This document shows, piece by piece, positions 1-48,425 of a stretch of 55,988 nt of DNA; position 1 is the stretch's first letter; each line of letters opens with the position of its first letter. Source of the DNA: a virus (Duplodnaviria; Caudoviricetes); IMG/VR virus record IMGVR_UViG_3300025141_000115, positions 1 to 55,988 of that record; one strand, written 5' to 3'. The position numbers and the translations under genes are program-made. The notes under the pieces were generated by a model. That model did not search any database. It saw nothing but the letters and a program-made list of their open reading frames with translations, and was not told the DNA's origin.

Positions 1-1250
1 AAATTTTGGTAAGCATTAAAGTCTAAAGTAATACTTCCTGTGTTTGACGTATCAGTTAAAGTTGCTGGAATGGCCGCTTTCCCAAATGTTGTCATCTGGT
101 TCTCATCAACTGATATGGCGGGTGTAGTACCAACCGCTGAACCTAGTCCTATCACAAGGTCATCAGCACTATCATCAAGGCCAATATAATAGTCTTGAGC
201 ATTGCCGTTATAAACCAGCTTGGTATCTTCAGCCGTTCCATCACCTATGGTTACAGATGCCGCAGGAAGTACAACAGCTTGATTCTCGTCTATTGTAATT
301 GCTGGCGTTGTACCTACTGTTGAACCAAGGCCAATAACTAAATCGTCCGCGCTATCATCAAGTCCTATATAAAAATCTTGAGCGTTTCCATCAAAGACAA
401 GTTTAGTATCGGCAGCCGCACCATCACCAATCGTCACTGAATCATCGTCCAGAGTAAGGATTGAGTTCGTTCCAACTGTTGATCCCACACCGACAACTAG
501 CTTATCTGCGCTATCATCCAGACCCATGTAAAAATCTTTAGCATTACCATCATAAATTAATATGGTGTCTTCAGCCGTTCCATCACCAATTGTGGCTTTA
601 GCTGCCGGAAGAACCACCGCTTGGTTTTCATCAATACTAATGGCAGGGGTTGTTCCCACCGCTGAACCTAATCCTATGACAAGATCATCTGCGCTATCGT
701 CTAAGCCCATGTAGTAATCTTGGGCGTTACCGTCAAATACAATCTTGGTATCTTCAGCCGTTCCATCACCAATTATGATAGAATCAGAAACGTATAAATT
801 AGCTAAAGCATCGACTACAGCAGCACCACTACCCGCTCCATCGCAGTAAACCACAGCAGTTTTACCATTAGGAACGGTTATATTTGCCCCAGAACCCTGA
901 GAAAGAATAACGCTGTATGGACCACTTGAACCTGAATCCGTAGTTGCGTTTATAATTATGAAAAAGGCTGCCGTAGTATTTGGAGCTATTGTTACAGTAT
1001 TGTTTGCCCCTAAAGCACCTGTAAATTTAATTACACGATACATTCCATCCTGAAGGTTCTCCGTTCCTGATCCAGGAGAAGCCTCTCGAACTGTTAGTGT
1101 ATGAGTTGATCCAGAAAGACCTACCGCCTTGTATGCCGCGATACGATCAAGGATATCTAGATTGTGGTTTGTTGTCGTACCCCACGCACCAGACTGCTCT
1201 CCGGATCCTATTTTTTCTATTCCGTAACTTGTTGTATATGTAGATGCCAT
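1..1250 (-). CDS. Tail fibre/spike protein, 5' part (runs off window start; absent from ORF track)
   Basis: ATG at 1250, open to position 1: MASTYTTSYGIEKIGSGEQSGAWGTTTNHNLDILD... (typical podovirus fibre N-terminus) followed by four ~55-60 aa repeats IGDGTAEDTKIVFDGNAQDYYMGLDDSADDLVIGLGS. Confidence 0.85.
   Translation of the reverse strand, partial: MASTYTTSYGIEKIGSGEQSGAWGTTTNHNLDILDRIAAYKAVGLSGSTHTLTVREASPGSGTENLQDGMYRVIKFTGALGANNTVTIAPNTTAAFFIIINATTDSGSSGPYSVILSQGSGANITVPNGKTAVVYCDGAGSGAAVVDALANLYVSDSIIIGDGTAEDTKIVFDGNAQDYYMGLDDSADDLVIGLGSAVGTTPAISIDENQAVVLPAAKATIGDGTAEDTILIYDGNAKDFYMGLDDSADKLVVGVGSTVGTNSILTLDDDSVTIGDGAAADTKLVFDGNAQDFYIGLDDSADDLVIGLGSTVGTTPAITIDENQAVVLPAASVTIGDGTAEDTKLVYNGNAQDYYIGLDDSADDLVIGLGSAVGTTPAISVDENQMTTFGKAAIPATLTDTSNTGSITLDFNAYQN
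100..778 (-). repeat. Four tandem coding repeats (~160-180 bp) in tail fibre
   Basis: Recurrent tcttcagccgttccatcacc and gcgctatcatc blocks at ~170-250, ~350-430, ~510-590, ~690-770. Confidence 0.85.
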
Positions 1251-7967: not shown

Positions 7968-8861
7968 CTATTTTACGTATTTAGCGTATTCTTCAAGTGG
8001 TACATTTAGCTTCTTCGCAATAGCAACTTGAGAGGATGTTAATCGCACAGTTTTACGTCCACCTCTATTGCGGGATGCGGAAGTTTCGGCTGACGCAACC
8101 TTTTTACTTCCACCCGTTTTCGGCTTATTCCCAAATTTATGAGGAAATTCAGTTATAAGCCTCTTATCAAGCTCAGAATAATACTCATCTGACTGTGGGT
8201 CAAACTGTTCATCCTCAACTAAACGTCTATGAATGCCAAAAGCGGCATATGTCATAACTTCATCAGTGCCAAACCACTCATTTTTAGACGCCCAATCCTC
8301 TGCCTTGGGGTCTGGTTGGGCAACAGGCTGTTGTTGTAGCTGTTGTTGTGGCTGCACCGCAGGTAGGGCTGTTTCTTCTTTTTCATCCTCAGAAACCTTT
8401 TTAAGCTTACCTTTCTCAACAGCAAGTTGAGATAAAGCCTCTTGAACCTCAACTATTTTGTCGATGTCTCCGGTCTCATGGGCTTCTTTAAGTAATTGCT
8501 TTGCAGCTTGTATTTGCGTAGTGACGCGAGTGTCAAATTCCTCTTGAAACCCTTTATCTAAGCTTTCCAAGCGTACCTTGAGCTTCTCGTTCTCGTCCCT
8601 AACGTTTTCAGCATATTGAACAGCCGACTGTTTCTGTCGCTCTTCCTCTCGAAATCGTTTAGTAAGCTTATCAATTCTGGTTTTTACCCCTGAACTGTAC
8701 TCTTCAAGCTCTTCTTCAGAAGCGGGTTCCTCTTCTTGCACAACTTCAGGAGCGGGTTCCTCTTTTACCTCCTCTTTTTTCGGTTTCTCCGAAATATCAA
8801 TGTCTACAGCAGATTCTTCCGAATCTCCTATATCTACTTTTTTTTCTTCAAGGTCTTCCAT
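7968..8861 (-). CDS. Putative scaffolding protein
   Basis: Acidic coiled coil, PDPKAEDWASKNEWFG, C-terminal VRLTSSQVAIAKKLNVPLEEYAKY; upstream of MCP. Confidence 0.75.
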   Translation of the reverse strand: MEDLEEKKVDIGDSEESAVDIDISEKPKKEEVKEEPAPEVVQEEEPASEEELEEYSSGVKTRIDKLTKRFREEERQKQSAVQYAENVRDENEKLKVRLESLDKGFQEEFDTRVTTQIQAAKQLLKEAHETGDIDKIVEVQEALSQLAVEKGKLKKVSEDEKEETALPAVQPQQQLQQQPVAQPDPKAEDWASKNEWFGTDEVMTYAAFGIHRRLVEDEQFDPQSDEYYSELDKRLITEFPHKFGNKPKTGGSKKVASAETSASRNRGGRKTVRLTSSQVAIAKKLNVPLEEYAKYVK

Positions 8862-8884: not shown

Positions 8885-9343
8885 CTAGACATGCTTAATG
8901 TCATCAGGTTCCAAAATAGTAGCTATAACTTCGTCATCATTAATGATGCGAACTTCGCCACCGTCAATCTTAAAACGAGCACCAGCATATCGGCCAATGC
9001 ATATCCAATCGCCTTCCTTGCACCATGAAGCACCTTCTTCCCCAAACTTATGGGGATCTTGGTACGCCAAAGGCCCAACCTTCAAAACATAAGCTACAAC
9101 GGTAGCTAACGCTTCACGGTCACGAACTTGATCAGGAATTAAAACACCACCGTCACTGGTTGCTTTACCCGCATATGGCATAACTAAAATACGCCATCCA
9201 GTGGGTTGAGGTAGTCTTTCACTTAGGGATACATCTAACAAAGAAGGATCGAGAACTCTTTCATCTTTCTTAACGTAGGCACTTTTCTTTTTCTCTTTCT
9301 CTTTCTCAGCTACATGATCAGGTACATATAGAGTTTTTGTCAT
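8885..9343 (-). CDS. groES: Co-chaperonin GroES-like protein
   Basis: PQPTGWRILV, GGVLIP, VGPLAY, RYAG, RIINDDEVIA. Confidence 0.85.
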   Translation of the reverse strand: MTKTLYVPDHVAEKEKEKKKSAYVKKDERVLDPSLLDVSLSERLPQPTGWRILVMPYAGKATSDGGVLIPDQVRDREALATVVAYVLKVGPLAYQDPHKFGEEGASWCKEGDWICIGRYAGARFKIDGGEVRIINDDEVIATILEPDDIKHV

Positions 9344-9534
9344 TCTTTCTCCTGTTTATCTAAAAAATCTTTAATCTCTTGCTCTGCATATTCAAGCCCC
9401 TTTAACTCACCTACAAGTTCTTTATAGGCTTCTAAGTCTTGGGGTTGTCCGTGAAGGATAGCATCCTTAGTTAGTTCTGCACGGCTCTGAATTGATTTTA
9501 AAACGTTATAAGCAAACGTAGTAGGGTCACTCAT
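9340..9534 (-). CDS. Hypothetical protein
   Basis: Coupled ORF; YKELVGELKGL. Confidence 0.65.
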   Translation of the reverse strand: MSDPTTFAYNVLKSIQSRAELTKDAILHGQPQDLEAYKELVGELKGLEYAEQEIKDFLDKQEKE

Positions 9535-9821
9535 TAATGAACACCTTTGAAACCTCTTCCTTTAATCGCGGCGCCACCCATAAACATTTTTTTAGGCTTG
9601 CCATGCATTCCACCTTCCATGTAGCCCATCTCATCGTCCATCGTTCCGCCCATGTTGCGTTTAGCGGAAGAAATTGCTTCTCCAACAGGCATCTCATTAT
9701 CAACAACATTATAGCCAATAACATTCCCATCTTGATCCGTTACAGATATAACCTTTCCGGCTTCTGATTCGGCATAAGCATTGGCTTCTGATTCTTTTGT
9801 AAACATAACTCCTGGGGGCAT
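9534..9821 (-). CDS. Small protein with three xxGG motifs
   Basis: RNMGG, YMEGG, MFMGG; TAATG coupling. Confidence 0.65.
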   Translation of the reverse strand: MPPGVMFTKESEANAYAESEAGKVISVTDQDGNVIGYNVVDNEMPVGEAISSAKRNMGGTMDDEMGYMEGGMHGKPKKMFMGGAAIKGRGFKGVH

Positions 9822-10006
9822 TAGAACATCCTCGTGTTTTTGGCGATACCGCCATCGTTTCGTTTCATGTATCCACCCATAGCGTTTTTATTTCCAAAAA
9901 TCTTTTTTACAACACTAGGGGAAAGAATTTTCTTTATCTTGTCCAGATCAATTTGACGAGCCTCCCTAGCTGTTTTCCCTTTAAACCTTCCGGCCTTGTA
10001 AGCCAT
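9821..10006 (-). CDS. Mini-protein with constant C-terminal tag (copy 3)
   Basis: Ends YMKRNDGGIAKNTRMF; TAATG overlaps both sides. Confidence 0.7.
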   Translation of the reverse strand: MAYKAGRFKGKTAREARQIDLDKIKKILSPSVVKKIFGNKNAMGGYMKRNDGGIAKNTRMF

Positions 10007-10215
10007 TAGAATACCCTCGTGTTTTTGGCGATACCGCCATCATTGCGTTTAATATAGCTCTCAACTGAACCGCCATCTTTCCTTGGGGTTACACCTGTTT
10101 TAAAGCTATTTTTCCAAGCTCTCATCACTCTATCGAAATTTTTTGGATTTGGAGACGCTTTAAGTAAAAGACTCATGGCTTTCTGTAACCTTACCTCATC
10201 TTCTTTAGAAGACAT
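10006..10215 (-). CDS. Mini-protein with constant C-terminal tag (copy 2)
   Basis: Ends YIKRNDGGIAKNTRVF; TAATG overlaps. Confidence 0.7.
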   Translation of the reverse strand: MSSKEDEVRLQKAMSLLLKASPNPKNFDRVMRAWKNSFKTGVTPRKDGGSVESYIKRNDGGIAKNTRVF

Positions 10216-10436
10216 TAGAATACCCTCGTGTTTTTGGCGATACCGCCATCATTGCGTTTCATGTATAGTTCTTCAGATGCGACTTGACCACGGGCGCGAT
10301 CTGCATCAGAAATAGTTTTGGCGCTCTCGCCAAGTATTTCCCTTAACATTCTGGCGCGATCAACATCAGAAATAGTTTTGTCTGCGTTTAATTTATTAAT
10401 ACGCATACGATCAACATCAGAAATAGTTTTAGCCAT
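10215..10436 (-). CDS. Mini-protein with 3x KTISD[V/A]DR and constant C-terminal tag (copy 1)
   Basis: Internal triple repeat; ends YMKRNDGGIAKNTRVF. Confidence 0.7.
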   Translation of the reverse strand: MAKTISDVDRMRINKLNADKTISDVDRARMLREILGESAKTISDADRARGQVASEELYMKRNDGGIAKNTRVF

Positions 10437-10672
10437 TAGAAGGTTCCTTTTCCATCGTTATCGTTGAAATAACGACCACGAATTTGAAACTCAGTTCCCT
10501 GTATTAACTGCTCAGTTCCACGATCAAGTTTTTTACGACCCCACTCGATGTGCTCTTCTTCAGCAGAGCCACCTTTAGCATAACCATTCATTTTTTTAGC
10601 TTTATCCATAAGACTACTCGCCTTTCCTTTAGAAATACCCATTTGCCTAGACATTTGATTTATACCAGCCAT
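10436..10672 (-). CDS. Small basic protein with YAKGG motif
   Basis: SD aggaga; ends NDNDGKGTF; coupled to the array. Confidence 0.65.
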   Translation of the reverse strand: MAGINQMSRQMGISKGKASSLMDKAKKMNGYAKGGSAEEEHIEWGRKKLDRGTEQLIQGTEFQIRGRYFNDNDGKGTF

Positions 10673-10681
10673 GCTATTCTC

Positions 10682-10780
10682 CTAATGATTACATACCGGG
10701 CAAGAACACTCAGGACAATTACTACCATCACAATGGCACTCATGTCCACAGTCAATGCACTTGCTATCATCATTTACCAT
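10682..10780 (-). CDS. Metallothionein-like Cys/His-rich peptide (32 aa; not in ORF track)
   Basis: MVNDDSKCIDCGHECHCDGSNCPECSCPVCNH: 8 Cys, 3 His. Confidence 0.6.
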   Translation of the reverse strand: MVNDDSKCIDCGHECHCDGSNCPECSCPVCNH

Positions 10781-10894: not shown

Positions 10895-13306
10895 TTAGTT
10901 ACCCCTTCCCGGCGGTTGGCTTCCATACTCTTTACCCATAGTATTAATACGTTCAAGGTTTACATCGGCTCTTAGAAGCGCAATATCTTCTTGGGAATCC
11001 ATCTTGTCTCGATCAATCTCCTGTCTCTCTGCTTCCCTCTTATTTTCAAACTCCTGCTTAACAGCAAACTCTTGGGCTTTTCGCTCAATGTCCATGGACT
11101 TTATGTCAAGCTCCTTGGATCTCAACTGAACAAGAGGATCCACCTCTCCTTCAGGCGGTGGCATAAGAGCAGCCATAACTTCTTCGGTGTATTGGGCTAT
11201 AAGCTGTGCGACCTTGGACTCTATGTCCACTTGAGGCTCCGGTTGACCCATTTGTGCAGCGTTCTGTGCATTAACAGTTGCTTCGGCCATCGCTACTCCC
11301 CTTGCTTTAAGTGCAATATGCTCACAAAGATGCGCTTGTAGTAAACCAAAGACGGGTGGGGTTGTTGAAGGTATAGGCGTCATCATAAAAGCTATATGCG
11401 ACTGTATATGGGCGTCATGATCCTGCGTTGGGAAAGCTTGTAGCATTTCCTGTATGATTGATCTCGCATTTTCGATAGCAGGGTCCATAGGTTGAGGCAC
11501 TGGGGGCGTAGGTAATATAGCTTCTATGTTCTGAACTCCTATTGCCTCGTAAATACGCTTATACGCCTCATACAAATTGTGCATCTGTGGATTTGTCTGG
11601 GCAAGCTCCAATTGAGTCTGTGCCATCGCCAATCGCTGTGACATCGAAAAGATATTAGGATCAGAAACAGGTATAACGTCAATGCGGTCATCGAAATCTG
11701 CCTGTTTTATAGTGGCATCCGCACCATGGATATTGTAGGGGTACATAGGTGGTAAAGATTCAGCAAAAATCTTAGCCAACATCCTAAATTCCTGTTTTTG
11801 AGCGTAATGCATACGCTTATGGATGGCGGACATGACCTTAGAACCACGCTCCAAGAGCGCAACAGTCGTTCCAACCGCCGCTTGCTGGTTTCCATCACCT
11901 ACCTGAAGGTCGGCAATGGCCGCGAAACGTCTTCCGGCGTCCACTACGAAGCCTAATAGCTGTGTTAGTGTCGGGCTTGGTTCCTTGTACGGTAACGGGA
12001 GTATACTGTCTCGAAGAGCACCACCGGGTACATCAATATCGCGAAACTCACCAGGAGAAAGAGGCTCGTCAGCATCACGAATCCGTATACCACGAGCTTT
12101 AAAGCCAGCAGGAAGATTAGCCAAAGTACCTGCATCAATTAATTGCCTCAAAATAGATGTTGCGGAGCGTCCTAGCCCCCCAATCATGTGTAAAAGTCCA
12201 AATCCATAAAAACCTAGCCCCGGCAGGAATTTATAGTGCGTAAAATACTGTATTTTTTTGTAATATTCGTCATTTTCTTCCCAATTCCTACGAATTGAGA
12301 GTACTTTTGAGCTTCCTTCGTCAATTGTGACAATATAAGGAAGCTTTATACCAGTTGTTTCGTTATCAAGGGGGCTTCTGTGCTCAAATCCCTTTAAATC
12401 CAGGTCAACATGCATCTCCAGAAGCGTACAATCGTCCCCTTCTGCCGTTTTTGAGATGCCCATAAGCTCTCTTTCCTTCCCACGAAGCTCATCATCGCTC
12501 TCATAAGCCCTCAATTCGACATCTCTATAGAAACCTGCAGCCTGAAACTTGCGTACAGAGTTCTCCGACATACGTGTAACATGCGTAATACGTGATGCAG
12601 ACTGCAAATCCGTTGCGTTATAAGGTACGACTAGGTCATCTGCTGCCACAAAACGGGAAACGGCACGGTCTAATATGTCATCGAAGTAGGTTTTCTTGAA
12701 AGCACTACCTGCAAGGGGGAGATAGAACAGTAAACGATCCATTTCTGGGTCGTATTCTTCCATAACATTCATTATTTGATAATTCATAAAGTCAGAAACA
12801 CGCTGGGACTGCGCTTCAACCTCAGAGGTTAACGCTCCAAGGATCAATGTCCTTACAGGACCGGAACTTGGAAGCAATTCCTTGTAAGCTTGCGCCTGAA
12901 ACTGTGTAACCGCTTCTGCAATAACCGGATGTGTAACACCACTGGCCCCTCTGAAAGGTTCTTCCCTGTCCTCGTACTTAACTCCTAGAAGATCCAGGCC
13001 ATTACGATAAGATTCTTCCCAATCATCACGGCTCGTCTTGTCATCTTCATAATATCCTGTGAGTTCTGATGAAATATCCATCAGGTCGCGTTCATCCAGA
13101 ATCTCTGCAAGGTTGGCATCCTGCTCTGCTAATAATTCCTCTTGAACAGCGTCCTCAAAATTCAAAACTACGGAGCCATCTTCTTCCTCGATGACCTCTG
13201 TAGGTTCCTCAATAACTTCAATCTCTTCCTCTTCCTCCACGAAATCATCCGTGAAGCCCTGTGCGGGCATCGCATTATCTATAAGAGATATGGGTGTGTC
13301 GGCCAT
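10895..13306 (-). CDS. Portal protein (P22-like)
   Basis: 803 aa; FYLPLAGSAFKK, LRQLIDAGTLANLPAGFK, VGTTVALLE; downstream of terL. Confidence 0.9.
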   Translation of the reverse strand: MADTPISLIDNAMPAQGFTDDFVEEEEEIEVIEEPTEVIEEEDGSVVLNFEDAVQEELLAEQDANLAEILDERDLMDISSELTGYYEDDKTSRDDWEESYRNGLDLLGVKYEDREEPFRGASGVTHPVIAEAVTQFQAQAYKELLPSSGPVRTLILGALTSEVEAQSQRVSDFMNYQIMNVMEEYDPEMDRLLFYLPLAGSAFKKTYFDDILDRAVSRFVAADDLVVPYNATDLQSASRITHVTRMSENSVRKFQAAGFYRDVELRAYESDDELRGKERELMGISKTAEGDDCTLLEMHVDLDLKGFEHRSPLDNETTGIKLPYIVTIDEGSSKVLSIRRNWEENDEYYKKIQYFTHYKFLPGLGFYGFGLLHMIGGLGRSATSILRQLIDAGTLANLPAGFKARGIRIRDADEPLSPGEFRDIDVPGGALRDSILPLPYKEPSPTLTQLLGFVVDAGRRFAAIADLQVGDGNQQAAVGTTVALLERGSKVMSAIHKRMHYAQKQEFRMLAKIFAESLPPMYPYNIHGADATIKQADFDDRIDVIPVSDPNIFSMSQRLAMAQTQLELAQTNPQMHNLYEAYKRIYEAIGVQNIEAILPTPPVPQPMDPAIENARSIIQEMLQAFPTQDHDAHIQSHIAFMMTPIPSTTPPVFGLLQAHLCEHIALKARGVAMAEATVNAQNAAQMGQPEPQVDIESKVAQLIAQYTEEVMAALMPPPEGEVDPLVQLRSKELDIKSMDIERKAQEFAVKQEFENKREAERQEIDRDKMDSQEDIALLRADVNLERINTMGKEYGSQPPGRGN

Positions 13307-41126: not shown

Positions 41127-41279
41127 TTAGTCCTCTTCTTTTCGTGCTCTGTACACAACCACCACGGCTTCGCATTCGGGGTTCATACAGTCAAATGTTT
41201 TTTCCAGATCAAAATCTTCATCATCAAGATCATCATCTTCTCTGTGTAAGAGTTCATTATCACAAAAATAACAGTTCAT
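41127..41279 (-). CDS. Small acidic zinc-binding protein (50 aa; not in ORF track)
   Basis: MNCYFCDNELL...DCMNPECEA. Confidence 0.55.
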   Translation of the reverse strand: MNCYFCDNELLHREDDDLDDEDFDLEKTFDCMNPECEAVVVVYRARKEED

Positions 41280-44200
41280 CATGGGCCGACTCCCAGTAGC
41301 TTATTAATCTCTGTCTGCCGCAGAGAATCAACCTCAGTTCCGCGTACGGTTGGGTTGGCTGGATTATAGATATCCAAAACTTCTTTAGGAGTTTCAGGCA
41401 AAGGTCTAAGACCTTCTTTCGGTGAAGTTGCGTAATTAATAACTTTCCCGCTAGGATCATAAGACTCTTCTGTTACTACTCGCACCTCCTCTTTCAAAGG
41501 CTCCAACACGGCTCCACTGGCGGCTGTTTGAGATACAGTTTCTTGAATAATTGGTAATAATTTATTGTTCCAATAATACATTACCTTACCACTTTCTTTT
41601 AGCTCTTTTCTAGATGGCAATTTGGCTCCAGCAGCTATCATAGCGTCATAATCGGCAGATCTAACAGAAGGGGAAGAAATCAGCTTTAAAAAAGTTTTAT
41701 TTCTAAAAAGCTTAGAAAGAACTTTAGGGACAAGAGTTAAACTTGCGTAAGTACCTATTGCAGCTAATGCAGGTCCAGCTAAGTATCCAAGAGTTAGAAT
41801 GGCAAGACCTGATGACACTGCCGCAGTACCTAACGCAGCCGATCTCGCAATTCTAGCAGTTGGACCGACTAGCGCACCTAAACCTTTAAAAGAAGCATCT
41901 GAAACTGTCACACTATCATCAGCTAATCTCATCAATCTTTTAACTTGATCTGCCCCTAAGATAGCATTCAAACCACCGCTTTTATTCATCTCAGTAATAG
42001 CTTTTGAAAATTCCCTTCCCCAAGTACCTGATTGTACTGCTGTTGCATCTAGAGTAGTCTTAGAAAGAAGCATCTGCATAGCAGTATCTCTTAGTCCTCC
42101 GGCCTTATCTATTTCAGCATCTCCTATAACTTTTCTTATTTTATTAAAGGCATTAGGACTATTTAAAATTTCTGTTATAACTGCTTGAGGATTTTCTATT
42201 GTACCTGAGTTAATTGCTTTAAAAGCTGCTAATTTTCCGCCCTCATTTGCTTCATCAACAATTGTTTTTAATCGAAGTAGGGAGTCTTTCAAAGGTGAAT
42301 CGGTAAATTTAGGAATGCTTTTAATTAACTCGTCTTGTTGTCCTGCTCCCAATAAATATGTTTTGTTTAGTGTATTTCTAAGAACAGAAGCGGCATCTTT
42401 ACCAAATAAAGTATTTTGGACATCTTCGCCTAAAGCAAAAAACTTCTGTGAGAACTGTGTTAAATCTGTTCGGCCTTGAACGTCTTTAGATTTAGATATA
42501 CTTTGTTCTATCCATGTTTTAGCCAACCCGTTTCTAGCAGCTTCTCTAACTGCCATAGGGTCACCTCCAGCCAACGCAAGTCTGCGAAGTTGCTCTAACG
42601 TTTCTCCGTATTCTTTCAGGTGTATTTGAGTAAAGATATCGTCTTTACCTAACTTATTTATAAACTCACTTACCTTTGGTACTGTTCCTTCTGGAAAAAA
42701 GTTATCAATTATTTTGTTGGCTTCTGCTAATTGCCCTTGGTTTACCAGCTTAGAGATATTTTCTATAACTCCTGACGCCCCTTTTTTGGATAATTCCCCA
42801 GCAGATTCTCCTCTTGGAGTTACTGCTTCTAAATAAGTCTTTAATTGGGGTGCGTTTCCTGCTTTTACTACAGTTTCAGCTACGTCTATGTTACTAGACC
42901 AAAACTTATCTTTAACTGTTTTTATAATAGTATTAATGGCAAGATTATTAAAGTCCTCCTGTCCTTTTGTATAATATTCAGCCGCCTTTTTCCACGCACC
43001 TAACCCTTGTCTTAAAGAATCAGAAGTCAAAGGCCCCCAACCAAGTTTAAAAACGTTTCCGTTGTCTAGTTGAACTGTTCTAGTTCCATTAGCCAAATCA
43101 TCGGACAACTGGATGAATTTGGCATCTATTGTGTCATCAACAGCTTTTATAATACGAGATATACCGGCTTGAGCAGCGGAAGCAATTAACTCAGGATCCT
43201 TATAACTTAAACTTAAAGCTTGTTTTAATTGTTGTAACTGTTGAAGACCCATTGTAGGTGTTTTTTCAATCACATCAAACAATAGACCCTTATACTGAAC
43301 AAAAGCATTACTACCCTTAAGGTCTTTTACAGCTTGTTGTATACCCGCCATTGAAAAAGTTGTTGCTTCCTCTCCTATTAAATCTTCTGCATTTTTATAC
43401 AACTTACTAGATTGAGCCTGAAACATTTTAGAAACCATAGGTAACAATTCTGCAAATTCAGATGGATACCCTTCTCTAGGATTGTATGATTTCTGGATTG
43501 TTTCTAATCTTTTTCCTATTACATCTCTTAAGATTCTTTGGCTATACGAGATAGCTTGTTCTGGATCAGACATTGTTTTATTTACAACTTGAGCTATTTC
43601 CTTACTTTGAGCTTCAAACATAGCTTCAGCTTGTTCTTTAGGTAGTTTTCCATCCCTGACATCTCTTAATATTTTTGTAATCCAAGCAGTGTTTGCCTTT
43701 CCTATTGAGGGGTCAGGAACTACTTTTTCAGCAATAGCCAAAGCTGTTTGCCCTGGTCTTTCTAGTCCAGAAACTGCGCCAATAGTTGGTTTTGCTCCTT
43801 GATTAATTAACTCTCTAGCGGCAGCTTTAGCTTCTTCTACTGCTACTTTTTCTGGGTCGAGTCTAAGGCCAATAGAAGTGGTAAGTTTTTCTAGTTTTGT
43901 CATAGCCTCTTTTGTTTTCATTTTCCCAGTAGGGTCTCGAGCTATCACAGCGTCTACAGCCTCACCACTTACTGTTGGACCAGCCCCTTTAAAGAGCTTT
44001 TGCAGACCTTTAAAAGCTAATCTGCCGCCACCCTCAAAAAGACCGTATTTAGTTCCTGTCCAAGCTACGTTTTCTGCAACTTCACCAAAGGATTCTGTGT
44101 TGTAGCCTTCTATTTGATCTATAAGTTCATCTACACCTTTTACTATTGCAACTGCTCCACCCACAATAGCCATCGCAGGAAGCATTGCTGTTGTTCCCAT

Positions 44201-44749
44201 TATAGCAAGACCCGTTCCTAATCCTGTTATGAGAGCAGGACCTTCTTCTCCTATAAAATCTGCTGTGTCTGGCCCCCATGTAAAACCGGGCTTATCAACA
44301 TAAACAAACCCACTGTCTTGCAACCCCAGTTCTGCTCTTTTTTCAGGAGCTACTTTACTTTGGTCAACCATAAAAACTCCAGGTTGCGGTTCTTGAATAG
44401 CTTCAGCACCCAAAGTTGTAGCTAAAAAATGTCTTTGATCCTCAACATTATCGGCTCTTCCGAAGTTATACCTAAAAGTTAAATCTTCAATTTCTCCCAT
44501 TTCTCTGTATGATCTAACTTCTTGCTGAGAAGCTTCAGGGGGCGGGGTTCCTTGGTCAGGGGGCGGTGGGGCATTGCCCATGCCTGAGTCAATAATGTCT
44601 TCATCCATTAAACGGTAATCAAACCCCTCATCTGGATTATAGTTAGGATCTATCTTTTTTAATTGTTCTAACTCAGCATCCGTAATGGTATCACCTGCAA
44701 TTTCTATTTCCGCAGGTCCGCCTGGAGTCATCATGTTAATAATAGCCAT
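41279..44749 (-). CDS. Large internal virion / DNA ejection protein
   Basis: 1156 aa, helical, two hydrophobic G/A-rich segments; last of four large ORFs after nozzle. Confidence 0.7.
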   Translation of the reverse strand: MAIINMMTPGGPAEIEIAGDTITDAELEQLKKIDPNYNPDEGFDYRLMDEDIIDSGMGNAPPPPDQGTPPPEASQQEVRSYREMGEIEDLTFRYNFGRADNVEDQRHFLATTLGAEAIQEPQPGVFMVDQSKVAPEKRAELGLQDSGFVYVDKPGFTWGPDTADFIGEEGPALITGLGTGLAIMGTTAMLPAMAIVGGAVAIVKGVDELIDQIEGYNTESFGEVAENVAWTGTKYGLFEGGGRLAFKGLQKLFKGAGPTVSGEAVDAVIARDPTGKMKTKEAMTKLEKLTTSIGLRLDPEKVAVEEAKAAARELINQGAKPTIGAVSGLERPGQTALAIAEKVVPDPSIGKANTAWITKILRDVRDGKLPKEQAEAMFEAQSKEIAQVVNKTMSDPEQAISYSQRILRDVIGKRLETIQKSYNPREGYPSEFAELLPMVSKMFQAQSSKLYKNAEDLIGEEATTFSMAGIQQAVKDLKGSNAFVQYKGLLFDVIEKTPTMGLQQLQQLKQALSLSYKDPELIASAAQAGISRIIKAVDDTIDAKFIQLSDDLANGTRTVQLDNGNVFKLGWGPLTSDSLRQGLGAWKKAAEYYTKGQEDFNNLAINTIIKTVKDKFWSSNIDVAETVVKAGNAPQLKTYLEAVTPRGESAGELSKKGASGVIENISKLVNQGQLAEANKIIDNFFPEGTVPKVSEFINKLGKDDIFTQIHLKEYGETLEQLRRLALAGGDPMAVREAARNGLAKTWIEQSISKSKDVQGRTDLTQFSQKFFALGEDVQNTLFGKDAASVLRNTLNKTYLLGAGQQDELIKSIPKFTDSPLKDSLLRLKTIVDEANEGGKLAAFKAINSGTIENPQAVITEILNSPNAFNKIRKVIGDAEIDKAGGLRDTAMQMLLSKTTLDATAVQSGTWGREFSKAITEMNKSGGLNAILGADQVKRLMRLADDSVTVSDASFKGLGALVGPTARIARSAALGTAAVSSGLAILTLGYLAGPALAAIGTYASLTLVPKVLSKLFRNKTFLKLISSPSVRSADYDAMIAAGAKLPSRKELKESGKVMYYWNNKLLPIIQETVSQTAASGAVLEPLKEEVRVVTEESYDPSGKVINYATSPKEGLRPLPETPKEVLDIYNPANPTVRGTEVDSLRQTEINKLLGVGP

Positions 44750-47382
44750 TACGATGGACCTTTTGGAGGAACTAAGCTAAAGCGTAGTTTTTTTGTTGTT
44801 TTTTCATCAAAAGGCTTAATTTCTCTCCCAACAGATATCATTTCTTGTTGATAAATTTTATGTATATCGAGGTAAGAATTTCTAATAACATTGCTTACTT
44901 GGCTAAGAGCTTTTCGAACACTTGCTTCACTCGTAAATATATTTGTTGTTAAAGATCCTATTACGTCTTTGCCATTAATATCCTTATCTATTTGATACCC
45001 CAATGCTCTAGCAACCCTAACTCTGTCTGCGTCAGAAATAGTTTTTCCACTTTCTCCTAAAATCATTGGAGTTATTTTAGCAAGTGTTAAACGACCTTGT
45101 GCTTCAAACGCTGTTTGCGGTGAATACTTTTGCCCTACTCCTAAAGCGTAATCGCGAAGCAGTGCTGCTCCAGGAACGCCATCTTCAGCAAAGGCTTGTG
45201 CGGCGTCACCAACTCTACTCATAATATTACCAATAGGACCTACTAGAGATGCCTTACCTTTAGCTTTATCAGTTAACTGATATAATTTTTGTAACTCGTC
45301 ATATATGTTTCTATAGCCGCCAGCTAAACGTTGATACTCTCCTGTAAATCTTTGTACATCGTTTTCGTCAGCCACTGATCCTAAATTAATTATTTCCTTT
45401 TCTTCCATTTTACCTGTATCTGGGTTTTTAACTTTAACCGTACGTATCATTCCCAACGCTTTAGCATCTGCTAAGTTTTTAGGAAGCATTATCTTTCCTG
45501 CGGATGTTAAGGTTAGTCTAGGAAGCCCTATTTCGCTTTTGTATGCCGCAAAGGGCTTTGGAGGATTGTTATCTCTCTTCATATATTTGTTGTACAGTTC
45601 GGCTCGAATTTTTCGGTCTTTTAAAGTTGGCTTACCTGTAATAGTTTTTTGTAAATCTAATTTTTTTATTAAGGATTGAGGATACATTTTAAGATCAGGG
45701 TTTCTTTTCTTTAATAAATTATACTCGTCTCGCGTCATACTTCGAGGGCTAAGAGGAGGAATCTTTTTTCCATTTGCAAGTGTTTGCCATTTTGGTCCAC
45801 TTACATAATCAATTATTTTTCTTCCTTCTTTAGCGATTTCCCTTTTCTCTGCTCTTTCTTCCCTAAGAATTTGTAATTCTTCACCCAGTACAAGCTTACC
45901 TATTTCTGTTTGCCTATTCCGTTTTGCGGCCTTTTGTTTCATTCCAAAATTTATCAATCCAGGAAGAGCCTTTTGCATACCATCTGATATATTTTTCAAA
46001 GCGTTTGGAGATTCTCCACCAGCTATCGAAGCGCCCAGCATAGCTATTAATAAACCTTGTGTTTGTGGGTCTTCTTCAACGGCTGGAATTAAAGCCTCAA
46101 TGCGTTTTCTAAGTGAGTCCATGTTGGTAGGCTTACCTTCCACCAAATCTTGACCCGTTGAAACCAAATCTTCTGAAACAGCCAGTTGTAAGTTTTCATC
46201 GGTTTCAGGGCCATTAAGTTTAAACGCACTAATTAAAACATCAGAATTTACAAGCTTCGAATCACCTTTATCATTGTTAACGACAATAGGATTGTCACCT
46301 GTTGTCATTGTTCCATCAGCACCAACTGCTCCGCCTTCTCCACCCATCATGTCAGAAGCTTCTACTACAGCCTCCACAGCATCGGTTTCGGTATTTTTGT
46401 TAGTAGCTTCCGCTAAATTAGCAAACAGTTGGTTCTGCTCATTAATTTCTTTATTCGTTGCTACTGTAGGTGGTCCTTCACCTTGGTCACCTGAACTATC
46501 AAAAACAGGAGGAAGCGCTTTAGCAGTAACAGCAATCTCAGGAGCAGCAGACCCATCCGGTGCTGCACCAAGTGGGGCTTCCATATCTTGCTTACTAACC
46601 TCAACTACCGAAGCATCGCCCGGCGGGCTGGCAGGACCGCCTATGTTTGGCTTTTCAACCTGTGGTACAGGTTTGGTTAAAGCACTCTCAGCTATATTTA
46701 CGATAGCTTCTTCACCGGGACTTGGTGCGTTTATATCTATCGCTGGTTGTTTAAAAACGCTTAAAGGTTGCTTTATCAGTTCCATATAATTTTTAATGTC
46801 TTCTTCAGGATAACCCATCTGTCTCATTTGTTCAGGAGTCATATTAATTTTTTGCGCTACTTCAACAGAAGGTGGTTTTCTATCAAAAGGAGAAGAAATT
46901 TGTCTATCTGCATCCGTTAGAGTACCCATCTTTACATTGTTTTGGGCAGCCTCATAAGCTTTTAGATCTACGCCGGGCCTTAAAGGTAAAGGACCTCCCT
47001 GTTCTGTTCCTTTGTATAACCTAACTGCTTGGGCTACTTTAGGATCGTTCATAAAAGATGACTGCTCGACTGCCCTTATCTCATCAGCATTTGCAGTTCC
47101 ATTTAAAACTTTAGCAATAACATTGTTAACGCCTCCACTACCAAATTTGGCGATTCCACCTTGGTTGAAAACGTAATTAGGTTGCATGTTAACAGCCGCC
47201 CCACCTTGGGCCATGGACAGTGTACCACCGCCCATGTCTGATAGAGCATCGTTACTGACTGCATCTACAAGGGAAGGGGACGAAGCTAAAATACCAGATG
47301 CCTTCGGGGTAGGGGGAACCATCCCACCGTTATTAAACATATGGCGTCTAGCTAAAACTGATTGGATTGTCCTGTTTCTCAT
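44749..47382 (-). CDS. Internal virion / DNA ejection protein
   Basis: 877 aa; N-terminal xxGG motifs, disordered middle, ILGESGKTISDADR. Confidence 0.7.
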   Translation of the reverse strand: MRNRTIQSVLARRHMFNNGGMVPPTPKASGILASSPSLVDAVSNDALSDMGGGTLSMAQGGAAVNMQPNYVFNQGGIAKFGSGGVNNVIAKVLNGTANADEIRAVEQSSFMNDPKVAQAVRLYKGTEQGGPLPLRPGVDLKAYEAAQNNVKMGTLTDADRQISSPFDRKPPSVEVAQKINMTPEQMRQMGYPEEDIKNYMELIKQPLSVFKQPAIDINAPSPGEEAIVNIAESALTKPVPQVEKPNIGGPASPPGDASVVEVSKQDMEAPLGAAPDGSAAPEIAVTAKALPPVFDSSGDQGEGPPTVATNKEINEQNQLFANLAEATNKNTETDAVEAVVEASDMMGGEGGAVGADGTMTTGDNPIVVNNDKGDSKLVNSDVLISAFKLNGPETDENLQLAVSEDLVSTGQDLVEGKPTNMDSLRKRIEALIPAVEEDPQTQGLLIAMLGASIAGGESPNALKNISDGMQKALPGLINFGMKQKAAKRNRQTEIGKLVLGEELQILREERAEKREIAKEGRKIIDYVSGPKWQTLANGKKIPPLSPRSMTRDEYNLLKKRNPDLKMYPQSLIKKLDLQKTITGKPTLKDRKIRAELYNKYMKRDNNPPKPFAAYKSEIGLPRLTLTSAGKIMLPKNLADAKALGMIRTVKVKNPDTGKMEEKEIINLGSVADENDVQRFTGEYQRLAGGYRNIYDELQKLYQLTDKAKGKASLVGPIGNIMSRVGDAAQAFAEDGVPGAALLRDYALGVGQKYSPQTAFEAQGRLTLAKITPMILGESGKTISDADRVRVARALGYQIDKDINGKDVIGSLTTNIFTSEASVRKALSQVSNVIRNSYLDIHKIYQQEMISVGREIKPFDEKTTKKLRFSLVPPKGPS

Positions 47383-48425
47383 TAAGTTAACCTTCCAAAC
47401 AGTTCCCCAAATGGATTACTTAACGCTTTATTAACCCCAAGAGCGCCTATCCCAACTCCAATTGCTTGAGATAGAGGACTTGGATCAGGAGCGGCTTTAG
47501 CCGTCAATGTGTTTTGAGCAGAACCGATAGTAGGTTTAAAAATATCACTCATAAAGCTAACACGCTGAAACGGTTCGTATTGCTGGGCCAAGGCGTTTGC
47601 TCTAGAAGCATCAAGAATTGCCTGTTCCTGGGTTTGTGCTAAACCACCAAGTTGGGTTTGTGCCTGTATCTGGTTCTGCAACATATTCTGTCCCGTTGTT
47701 CCAAGATTAGCTTGCGCTATGCCAAGCTGACCCATAGCACTTCCGCCTCTAATAGCTTCCTGACTTCTAGCTTGACCAATGCCAGCTAGTAAATTAGCTA
47801 CTCCTTGCTGGCGTTTTTGTTGGTTTTCAAAAGCTGTCTGGGAAGCATTAGTCGCTTGATTAAAGTTACGGGCGTAATCCTCAAATATCCTACGGCTTTG
47901 CATATCCATTAGGTTTCTGTCTAACTCCGCTAGTTGAAGACTTCCTCTGTCTCCACCTAACGCTCCAATGCCAGCTTGTCGAGAAGTAATTCCCTGACGC
48001 TGTATGTCTGCTTGGCGTTGCATTTCAGCGAGAGCGGCCTGTGTTACGTTTTCTTGGTACGGATTCATAAAAGGATCAAGAGTAGCCTGATCAGGAGTGT
48101 ACATCTGACCTGCACCAGCGGCCTGTGTTCCGGCGTCCGTGAACAATTGATTTACGCCAGACAGTCCGGATTGTAATGACCCTATACCACTGCCAATGGT
48201 TCCTGTGGCGTCTGTTAAGTAATCTTGGTATTGCCCAAGACCTTGACCAGCAGCTATGGCAGATGTGGTAAGTGGGTCCATCGGGGATATTTGTCGGGCT
48301 GCACCAACCTCTGCTAAATTAGTAGGCGTCTCCCCAAGCAATCGAGCTTGGTCTAATATAGCTCTGCCAGCTTCTTCAATATAAGGAGCTTGCCTAAGAG
48401 TTTGGGTTGTTTGTGTAACAGCCAT
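47382..48425 (-). CDS. Gln/Ala/Gly-rich ejection protein
   Basis: FMNPYQENV, GALGGDRG, YEPFQRVSF. Confidence 0.7.
   Translation of the reverse strand: MAVTQTTQTLRQAPYIEEAGRAILDQARLLGETPTNLAEVGAARQISPMDPLTTSAIAAGQGLGQYQDYLTDATGTIGSGIGSLQSGLSGVNQLFTDAGTQAAGAGQMYTPDQATLDPFMNPYQENVTQAALAEMQRQADIQRQGITSRQAGIGALGGDRGSLQLAELDRNLMDMQSRRIFEDYARNFNQATNASQTAFENQQKRQQGVANLLAGIGQARSQEAIRGGSAMGQLGIAQANLGTTGQNMLQNQIQAQTQLGGLAQTQEQAILDASRANALAQQYEPFQRVSFMSDIFKPTIGSAQNTLTAKAAPDPSPLSQAIGVGIGALGVNKALSNPFGELFGRLT

What the first reader, a model, noticed from the sequence alone, without database searches (positions are those of the whole stretch)
10215..10436. Mini-protein mimics a 14-aa segment of an ejection protein encoded 35 kb away
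Seen: ILGESAKTISDADR (10296-10337) vs ILGESGKTISDADR (45022-45063, 877-aa protein): 13/14 identical, yet 8 of the 13 identical residues use different codons, so similarity is kept at protein level. The mini-protein repeats the KTISD.DR core three times and carries the array tag. Inference: multivalent mimic of an ejectosome interface - placeholder/chaperone during assembly, decoy for a host sensor, or superinfection-exclusion peptide.
Basis: partly seen in the sequence, partly recalled or inferred. Interest (0 to 1): 0.85.

Follow-up and report, generated by a model that had tools for sequence, protein, structure and literature searches.

The report
Tagged mini-protein repeating an ejection-protein motif
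A 73-residue phage gene strings together three copies of the one invariant motif of a large DNA-ejection-type protein and adds a tail shared with its neighbour genes; it belongs to a widespread, undescribed family of marine-phage mini-proteins whose job is still unknown.

Summary
ORF 10215-10436(-) encodes 3x KTISD(V/A)DR plus the tail YMKRNDGGIAKNTRVF. The 877-aa ORF 44749-47382(-) carries ILGESGKTISDADRVR. The match is 13 of 14 residues, and 8 of the 13 identical residues use different codons.

The motif is the only invariant block of the big-protein family. That protein sits between a gp14-like and a gp16-like gene, the gp15 position.

The mini-protein belongs to a real family. It has 47 clusters at 50% identity and 72 IMG/VR loci, with 1-4 repeats by my pattern. 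In 56 of 60 loci it lies between the portal and GroES-like genes. It is accessory: a near-identical contig lacks exactly this cassette.

All six records of at least 28 kb that hold a mini also hold a big homologue. Two near-complete genomes have the big protein alone.

The motif therefore acts as a self-contained short linear motif. My best reading (about 0.4) is a tag-loaded small core or ejection accessory whose repeats occupy the site that the big protein's motif binds. Strict co-variation was not found. No partner was identified. No paper holds the motif.

The parts
10215..10436 (-). Mini-gene, 73 aa plus stop: three TISDxDR units and a C-terminal tail. TAATG stop/start overlaps at both ends, and AAGGA lies 8 nt before the ATG.
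   Evidence: Family of 47 clusters and 72 loci.
10404..10431 (-). Repeat unit 1 (AKTISDVDRM)
   Evidence: family D2
10353..10380 (-). Repeat unit 2 (DKTISDVDRAR)
   Evidence: family D2
10293..10320 (-). Repeat unit 3 (core of ILGESAKTISDADRAR), the unit closest to the big protein
10218..10265 (-). C-terminal tail YMKRNDGGIAKNTRVF, shared with the 69-aa and 61-aa neighbour genes
   Evidence: (D1)
9534..10780 (-). Array of small genes between the portal and the 64-aa/GroES-like genes (32, 78, 73, 69, 61 and 95 aa)
   Evidence: Same layout in Pelagibacter phage HTVC027P gp44-gp54, all annotated hypothetical.
10895..13306 (-). Portal protein (803 aa)
   Evidence: phrog_1216 E 6.8e-51; Pfam SU10_portal
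44749..47382 (-). 877-aa protein at the gp15 position of the ejection-gene trio
45022..45063 (-). ILGESGKTISDADR, the invariant block of the 877-aa family
47382..48425 (-). 347-aa protein upstream of the 877-aa gene (gp14 position)
   Evidence: phrog_4287 'DNA ejection protein' E 9.2e-6
41279..44749 (-). 1156-aa protein directly downstream (gp16 position)
   Evidence: No family hit.
8885..9343 (-). GroES-like co-chaperonin that closes the array
   Evidence: phrog_3188 E 4e-15

Best explanation
Shown: the 73-aa ORF is a genuine, conserved late gene and an accessory member of the small-gene array that follows the portal gene in a large group of uncultured marine podoviruses. It has two modules. 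The first is three tandem units of about 19 aa, each a polar loop (..GES[GA]KTIS) followed by a helix (D.DR.R..). These units copy the one invariant block of the 600-980 aa protein encoded between the gp14-like and gp16-like ejection genes. The second is a 16-aa C-terminal tail shared with neighbouring array genes.

Inferred: the same residues (E, S/G, G, K/R, T, I, S, D, x, D, R) are held constant in two unrelated settings, once inside a large helical protein and in tandem inside a mini-protein with no confident fold. Synonymous sites are randomised. The block therefore behaves as a self-contained short linear motif, that is, a peptide that binds something.

Most likely mechanism (inferred, not shown): the tail loads or docks the mini-protein at the portal/core. 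The repeats then occupy, with avidity, the same site(s) that the big protein's motif binds. The mini-protein would work as an optional adaptor, filler or competitor in the internal core or ejectosome, in the manner of the small T7 core protein gp6.7.
For: Motif identity and protein-level conservation.

The motif is the only invariant block in the big family. This holds in 12 full-length homologues down to 27% identity. It also holds in 23 C-terminal fragments at 14-37% identity, where the invariant columns are P361 L364 E366 G368 T370 I371 S372 D373 D375 R376 G384. The motif occurs once per ORF in the 36 IMG/VR loci with a large ORF.

Gene order p761-p493-p347-big-p1156 was seen in full in 4 of the 8 loci tested, and L106 showed the same order without a p1156 hit. 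A 585-1183 aa ORF follows directly in all 37 rows. p347 matches phrog 'DNA ejection protein'. The review PMC8954989 (passages read) says gp15-like proteins are assigned by size (431-982 aa) and synteny.

Mini family: 47 clusters with E<=1e-3 among 1.84e9 representatives; 72 of 121 pattern stretches confirmed in IMG/VR; 41 distinct proteins, with 1 to 4 repeats in 12, 13, 12 and 4 of them. Per-position profiles of 140 distinct mini units and 30 distinct big units agree over L-L-G-E-S-G-[KR]-T-I-S-D-A-D-R-x-R.

Reciprocal detection: the big-protein profile finds the mini in G006 at E 1.9e-8. The mini-only profile finds the big motif in 10 of 10 records.

One-way dependence: 6 of 6 records of at least 28 kb with a mini also have a big homologue (window; G006; G007; the contig shared by L094 and L163; G009 and G010). 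G008 (100% complete) and G014 (91%) have the big protein without a mini.

Context: 56 of 60 loci place the mini between the portal and the p64/GroES/scaffold genes on the same strand.

Modularity: the repeats also occur fused to the two other C-terminal modules of the array.

Local structure is the same in both proteins: a loop over GESGKTIS, then a helix from D.DR (AF2; both low confidence).

Precedent: T7 gp6.7 is an 88-aa core protein whose two loops bind the portal barrel and gp15 and bridge the symmetry mismatch (PMC11784390; abstract, sections 6 and 9 read).
Against: No evidence that the mini-protein is in the virion. No proteomics exist, and the nearest cultured phages (HTVC027P, CRP-901) have neither protein.

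No partner was identified.

No strict co-variation in 6 same-record pairs. Minis favour R (65%) and bigs favour K (80%) before the T.

The conserved residues are polar or charged. That fits a non-protein ligand as well as it fits a protein interface.

The gene is dispensable. L001 lacks it (98.6% and 92.7% nt identity on its two flanks), and so do two near-complete genomes with the big protein.

In 4 of 60 loci the mini lies elsewhere: between TerL and the portal, or beyond the p1156 gene on the other strand.

The assignment of the 877-aa protein as gp15-like rests on position and size only. Foldseek and PDB sequence searches found nothing.
Confidence: 0.4

Rival explanations
1. Shared ligand-binding repeat, not mimicry. 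The unit is a small independent module that binds a non-protein ligand such as a cation, a phosphate group, DNA, the envelope or the membrane. The big protein carries one copy and the mini-proteins carry several for avidity. They do not compete for a protein site.
For: The conserved positions are E, S, G, K/R, T, S, D, D, R, polar and charged. Tandem copy number varies from 1 to 4, and the unit is fused to three different C-terminal modules, as is usual for polymer- or surface-binding repeats. Nine of 25 family members give sub-threshold Pfam DUF1707 'SHOCT-like' hits over the first 15 profile positions. SHOCT-like bihelical domains are predicted to anchor proteins at the membrane (PMC11237479, passages read).
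Against: The DUF1707 hits reach at most 18.7 bits against a cut-off of 27.6. The window's own mini gives none, and the DUF1707 model finds nothing in the window at E<=1. The unit is net acidic or neutral, which is poor for DNA or membrane binding. A Walker-A reading fails: the spacing is GxxGKT, and K is R in 65% of mini units. The one-way dependence on the big protein (6 of 6) is not predicted by this reading.
Confidence: 0.25
2. Assembly-only chaperone or placeholder. The mini-protein is made late and transiently occupies the motif's binding site during procapsid or core assembly. It is displaced by the big protein and is absent from mature virions.
For: The gene sits between the portal and GroES-like/scaffold genes and is translationally coupled by TAATG overlaps. 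Multivalency suits a ring-shaped target. T7 gp7.3 is described as a structural scaffold for assembly (PMC11784390, abstract and section 9).
Against: The gene is dispensable in close relatives and absent from complete genomes with the big protein. An essential placeholder would be expected to be universal. There is no direct evidence.
Confidence: 0.13
3. Injected decoy or anti-defence cargo. The array is an arsenal of small proteins loaded through a common tail and delivered with the DNA, like the T4 internal proteins (recalled, not fetched here). This member presents copies of the ejection protein's invariant motif to soak up a host or prophage factor that targets it.
For: The array has a variable payload and a constant tail and is mosaic. 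There is presence/absence polymorphism between near-identical phages. Contigs break and carry loose ends at gene junctions 10003, 10056 and 10433 in 2 of 4 runs laid. Payload modules are shuffled. An invariant motif is a natural target for a host factor.
Against: No host factor is known. No evidence of packaging or injection. No prohead protease family was hit in the head genes scanned, so T4-type processing is not supported. Only this one array member resembles another virion protein.
Confidence: 0.12
4. Neutral by-product. A fragment of the big gene was captured and amplified in a recombination-prone array and has no function.
For: The array recombines at its tail repeats.
Against: Motif positions are as conserved in 140 distinct mini units (S 100%, D 96%, R 93%, I 89%) as in the big proteins, across 47 clusters at 50% identity. 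Synonymous sites are randomised. ORFs are intact and coupled.
Confidence: 0.03

Closest known systems
T7 gp6.7 (and gp7.3), small core and tail-channel proteins of a podovirus (PMC11784390: abstract, sections 6 and 9 read)
   Same: Under 100 aa and largely unstructured. Encoded next to the portal gene. It acts through short linear segments that bind the portal barrel and the gp15 ring, and it copes with the 12-to-8 symmetry mismatch. That is the working model proposed here.
   Different: No sequence comparison with gp6.7 was made. gp6.7 is not a repeat of a gp15 motif and has no tail shared with neighbour genes. Virion location is shown for gp6.7 and unknown here.
T4 internal proteins with a capsid targeting sequence in a hyperplastic locus (recalled; my one literature search for it failed on a term-length error, and was not repeated)
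   Same: A set of small proteins with a constant short targeting peptide and variable bodies, in a locus that differs between close relatives.
   Different: The T4 signal is N-terminal and is cut off by the prohead protease. Here the constant part is C-terminal, and no protease family was hit. Packaging is not shown here.
gp15-like ejection (internal virion) proteins of podoviruses (review PMC8954989, passages read)
   Same: The 877-aa protein lies between a gp14-position gene (phrog 'DNA ejection protein') and a gene of more than 1000 aa. It is within the 431-982 aa range and is predicted to be helix-rich.
   Different: No sequence or fold similarity to any solved structure. The upstream protein (347 aa) is larger than the 181-240 aa given for gp14-likes. 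The invariant LLGESGKTISDxDR block is not described in the passages I read.
Pfam DUF1707 / SHOCT-like bihelical domain
   Same: Its first helix starts with an [R]xSDADRxxV-type cap like the repeat unit. Nine of 25 family members give weak hits to profile positions 3-17.
   Different: Below the gathering score. Only 15 of 53 positions are covered. No hit from the window's own proteins. This is a resemblance of one helix, not membership.

Membership tests
   Three units in the window's ORF. Family profile.
   YMKRNDGGIAKNTRVF. Invariant D63 G64 G65 R71 in 25 aligned members.
   Window. 56 of 60 loci.
gp15-like ejection protein (for the 877-aa partner) | Position between a gp14-like and a larger gp16-like gene; size 431-982 aa (PMC8954989) | tested here: met
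gp15-like ejection protein (for the 877-aa partner) | Sequence or fold similarity to T7 gp15 or P22 gp20 | tested here: not met
   No PDB sequence hit at E<=10. No Foldseek hit at E<=0.001, on a model of pLDDT 64. The Atlas gives only a 0.81 lead to PF16928 Inj_translocase.
T7 gp6.7-type small core adaptor | Present in the virion core; binds the portal barrel and gp15 | not testable with these tools
   No proteomics or structure available.
T4-type internal proteins | Shared targeting peptide removed by a prohead protease | tested here: not met
   The shared peptide is C-terminal. PHROG scans of head-module genes hit no protease family apart from capsid-domain overlaps.
Pfam DUF1707 (SHOCT-like) | Score at or above the gathering cut-off of 27.6 bits over the 53-position model | tested here: not met
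   Best family member 18.7 bits over positions 3-17. The window's mini gives no hit. The model against the whole window gives 0 hits at E<=1.
P-loop (Walker A) NTP-binding motif | GxxxxGK[ST] with invariant K | tested here: not met
   Spacing is GxxGKT. K is replaced by R in 65% of mini units and 20% of big units.

The most novel reading that the evidence does not exclude
The post-portal array is a capsid-loaded, injected arsenal addressed by C-terminal tails. This member is a multivalent decoy that shields the ejection protein's single invariant motif from a host or prophage factor that blocks DNA entry. That would be self-mimicry as counter-defence in some of the ocean's most abundant phages.
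Probability: 0.12. Interest if true: 0.9.

Novelty: new variant of a known kind. Interest (0 to 1): 0.62.

Why it matters
Ejection proteins of short-tailed phages diverge so fast that they are usually recognised only by size and position. Here one 14-22 residue block stays invariant across a family that is otherwise 14-37% identical. The phages also encode optional mini-proteins made of nothing but copies of that block plus an address-like tail.

That singles out the block as a functional peptide. It also gives a ready-made natural probe (the mini-protein) for finding its partner and dissecting core or ejectosome assembly in an abundant but experimentally opaque group of marine phages. The closest cultured portals are Pelagibacter phages HTVC027P and HTVC023P at 53% identity.

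It also shows that the small-gene array after the portal is modular, with payloads swapped between three C-terminal modules. This is worth knowing when annotating the many 'hypothetical' mini-genes of these genomes.

Tried and rejected
Searches that found nothing:
- Phage GenBank collection (tblastn): no match for the 877-aa protein at E<=1e-5 or the mini at E<=1.
- Word-indexed search for short proteins sharing residues 752-800 of the big protein: 14 candidates, none at E<=10. The exhaustive phmmer run then found the family.
- Pfam, PHROGs and NCBIfam on the mini and the 877-aa and 1156-aa proteins: no family. The only hit was a sub-threshold Sigma70_r3 match at residues 155-189 of the 877-aa protein.
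- Foldseek against the PDB with the C-terminal model: nothing at E<=0.001. PDB sequence search with both profiles: nothing meaningful.
- ESM Atlas: only unnamed viral clusters. Weak leads (Inj_translocase 0.81; LTXXQ fold at TM 0.55 on a poor model) were not pursued.
- GTDB genomes: 35 pattern stretches, 1 confirmed relative, on a 6-kb MAG contig. This gave no host clue.

Complex prediction (C-terminal 466 aa of the big protein with the mini, both as alignments): no verdict, score 0.00. This is not evidence either way.

Sequencing runs: no RNA holder is listed. Contigs of 4 DNA runs are fragmented over the array. Parts without cover in X2 and X5 mean nothing.

Ideas considered and dropped:
- Walker A loop (spacing wrong, K to R common).
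- EF-hand or dockerin loop (register off by one; by eye only).
- Helix-hairpin-helix and sigma region 4 first helix (pattern resemblance only, no Pfam hit).
- T4-type LxE protease site (no protease found).
- A motif-like segment at the 1156-aa N-terminus. It turned out to be a different conserved motif, IAGDxPTxEE.
- YMKRDN at residues ~600 of the 877-aa protein as a third shared motif. It is not conserved beyond close relatives, so probably chance.
- Other array members as mimics of other virion proteins: none significant.
- Joining the record's ends into one ORF: the frames do not join.

Supplementary files of the papers were not opened. Gene tables of HTVC023P-type genomes there (PMC9599517) might list these small genes.

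Full report
OBSERVATION

ORF 10215..10436(-) encodes 73 residues. It has three KTISD(V/A)DR units and ends in YMKRNDGGIAKNTRVF. ORF 44749..47382(-) encodes 877 residues and contains ILGESGKTISDADRVRVARALG at residues 774-795.

Unit 3 of the mini-protein (ILGESAKTISDADR) matches it at 13 of 14 positions. Eight of the 13 identical residues use different codons. The number of shared codons is 5, against 4.67 expected if codons were drawn independently from this genome's usage. Nothing is therefore left of any DNA-level relatedness.

Chance does not explain the match. In 200 shuffles of the mini-protein, the best 14-mer match to any other ORF in the window was 6-9 of 14. blastp-short within the window gives E 1.7e-8.

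The three units are also DNA repeats, and the tail lies in a 57-nt repeat shared with the next two genes. The gene starts and ends in TAATG overlaps with its neighbours and has AAGGA 8 nt before the ATG.

THE BIG PROTEIN

Twelve full-length homologues, down to 27% identity, share LGESGKTISD.DRVRVA..LG as their one fully invariant stretch.

A scan of IMG/VR with patterns from that block gave 236 stretches, of which 40 were confirmed relatives. In 36 of those loci the motif occurs once, in an ORF of 301-976 aa. Some of these ORFs are cut by contig ends.

In 23 aligned C-terminal fragments at 14-37% identity, the only invariant columns are P361, L364, E366, G368, T370, I371, S372, D373, D375, R376 and G384.

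The gene always sits in the same place: after relatives of the window's 761-, 493- and 347-aa genes, and directly before a 585-1183 aa ORF (all 37 rows). The 347-aa protein matches PHROG 4287, 'DNA ejection protein'.

A review of ejection proteins says the three genes form a small operon in the order gp14-like, gp15-like, gp16-like. It also says that gp15-likes (431-982 aa) are recognised mostly by size and synteny (PMC8954989, passages read). By that standard the 877-aa protein is the gp15-position protein.

I found no sequence or fold similarity to anything solved. The AF2 model of its last 466 residues is weak, with mean pLDDT 64. It places the motif as helix 344-364, loop 365-372 (GESGKTIS, lowest confidence) and helix 373-382.

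THE MINI-PROTEIN FAMILY

An exhaustive phmmer search of 1.84 billion cluster representatives found 47 proteins at E<=0.001, four of them at E<=1e-10. They are 53-266 aa long. Their sequences show 1-5 units of [LM]L.E[SG][GS][KR][TN]ISD.DR.R followed by Y.[KN]RNDGG[IM]A.KTR.[FY] (alignment).

IMG/VR holds 72 confirmed loci out of 121 pattern stretches. I extracted 41 distinct proteins from them. By my pattern they carry 1, 2, 3 or 4 repeats in 12, 13, 12 and 4 cases.

In 56 of 60 loci the gene lies downstream of the portal and upstream of the 64-aa/GroES-like/scaffold genes, on the same strand. In two loci it lies between the terminase and the portal. In two it lies beyond the 1156-aa homologue on the other strand.

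The repeats also occur fused to the two other C-terminal modules found in the array...NDNGGKGTF and ...GGAIKGKNFxGxF. Payload and tail are therefore separable modules.

Position by position, 140 distinct mini units and 30 distinct big-protein motifs have the same preferences over L-L-G-E-S-G-[KR]-T-I-S-D-A-D-R-x-R. In minis the figures are S 100%, D 96%, R 93% and I 89%. The one systematic difference is R (65%) in minis against K (80%) in bigs before the T.

AF2 on the family alignment gives no confident fold (pLDDT 58, pTM 0.22). It does show the same local pattern: each helix starts at D.DR, the KTIS stretch is loop, and the tail is coil.

DISTRIBUTION

The gene is accessory. Contig L001 is 98.6% identical to the window over the portal side and 92.7% over the other side. 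It passes from the 78-aa gene straight to the 69-aa gene: window 10155-10433 corresponds to only 58 nt there.

Contigs of public marine runs break up across the array. They show loose ends at the gene junctions 10003, 10056 and 10433 in two of the four runs laid, which fits a mosaic region.

All six records of at least 28 kb that hold a mini also hold a big-protein homologue:
- the window itself;
- G006;
- G007;
- the contig shared by L094 and L163;
- G009 and G010.

Two near-complete genomes, G008 (100%) and G014 (91%), have the big protein but no mini. Pelagibacter phage HTVC027P and Roseobacter phage CRP-901 are among the closest cultured portals, at 53% and 47% identity. Neither gave a match to the big-protein profile, and the ORFs of HTVC027P's post-portal array show no TISD unit. 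HTVC027P has the same portal, small-gene array, GroES layout.

Each profile finds the other protein. The big-protein profile hits the mini of G006 at E 1.9e-8. The mini-only profile hits the big motif in 10 of 10 records.

In the six same-record pairs there is no strict co-variation. The core is almost invariant in both proteins, and the variable positions do not track each other.

There is a weak hint. The two records whose big motif has drifted are G009 (LGEGSKNISNIDR) and G010 (GGKITDQER). Their mini repeats have also drifted (RTISRADQ, RTMSDADR; NSISNRDL), but not to the same sequence. The four canonical bigs go with at least one canonical mini unit. Six pairs are too few to lean on.

INTERPRETATION

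A helix cap that merely held the big protein's fold together would have no reason to be preserved, residue for residue, as tandem copies in a mini-protein without a stable fold. The block therefore looks like a self-contained short linear motif. This is inference.

What it binds is unknown. I favour a protein site in the core or ejectosome (confidence 0.4) for three reasons:
- the mini depends on the big protein (6 of 6);
- its usual place is in the portal-scaffold operon;
- T7 gp6.7 sets a precedent. It is an 88-aa core protein whose two loops bind the portal barrel and the gp15 ring and absorb the 12-to-8 mismatch (PMC11784390, sections 6 and 9).

A multivalent copy of the gp15-position protein's own motif could fill or compete for such sites. 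The shared tail would supply the loading or docking function.

The main rival (0.25) is that the unit binds a non-protein ligand and is simply a shared module. The conserved residues are all polar. Nine of 25 members give sub-threshold hits to the first helix of Pfam DUF1707, 'SHOCT-like', a domain type predicted to anchor proteins at membranes (PMC11237479, passages). Membership fails, though: the best score is 18.7 bits against 27.6, there is no hit for the window's mini, and the model finds nothing in the window.

An assembly-only placeholder (0.13), an injected decoy (0.12) and a neutral by-product (0.03) remain possible.

NOVELTY

None of Pfam, PHROGs or NCBIfam has a family for the mini-protein or the 877-aa protein. 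No paper in the searched library contains the motif strings. The papers on HTVC023P-type phages that I searched do not mention the array ('portal', 'small protein', 'ejection' and 'internal virion' each 0 occurrences in PMC9599517).

Small tagged or adaptor proteins in phage heads are a known kind. A mini-protein built from tandem copies of its own ejection protein's signature motif is a new variant of that kind.

Noticed in passing
window 7968-8861 (-), near the C-terminus of the 297-aa scaffold-like protein...SRNRGGRKTVRLTSSQVAIAKKLNVPLEEYAKYVK contains RNRGG-RKTVRL, which resembles the array tail RNDGGIAKKTRVF. The stretch is conserved in relatives' scaffold-like proteins (L008, L181). It may hint that the tails imitate a scaffold docking element. 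Seen by eye only.
   Followed up: no
window 44749-47382 (-), residues 1-170 of the 877-aa protein: The N-terminal region uses the same motif vocabulary as the mini-genes: MFNNGGMV, VFNQGGIAKF (compare tail NDGGIAK) and GTLTDADRQI, a second TISDADR-like unit. Homologue P0005 has it doubled as LTAADRKLTAADRN.
   Followed up: partly
window 9534-10780 and loci L001-L079: Across the relatives of this portal that I looked at, the region after the portal is an array of small basic proteins. They carry 'GG' motifs and aromatic C-termini (...GRNFSGIY...GKGTF...KKGWK...KTRVF). The set differs between close relatives. The output was cut, so I saw only part of the 39 loci listed.
   Followed up: partly
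window 10682-10780 (-): A 32-aa Cys/His-rich ORF (CIDCGHECHCDGSNCPECSCPVCNH) heads the array. Similar ORFs occur in L001, L004 and L056.
   Followed up: no
window 1-1250 and 53880-55988: Both record ends lie inside minus-strand ORFs (416 aa running off the start, 702 aa running in from the end). There is no terminal repeat, and the ends do not join into one frame. The record is probably a permuted or slightly incomplete genome.
   Followed up: partly
L088 16339-16797 (-); L119 906-1391; L120 223-717: In more distant phages the TISD units sit inside longer, very basic proteins full of KKGYAKGG / MGGKVQKM repeats. These proteins lie outside the post-portal position.
   Followed up: partly
window 41279-44749 (-) and homologues: The gp16-position proteins share a conserved N-terminus, MGIIxVxTPxGxxxVxIAGDxPTxEE. 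It is distinct from the TISD motif.
   Followed up: no
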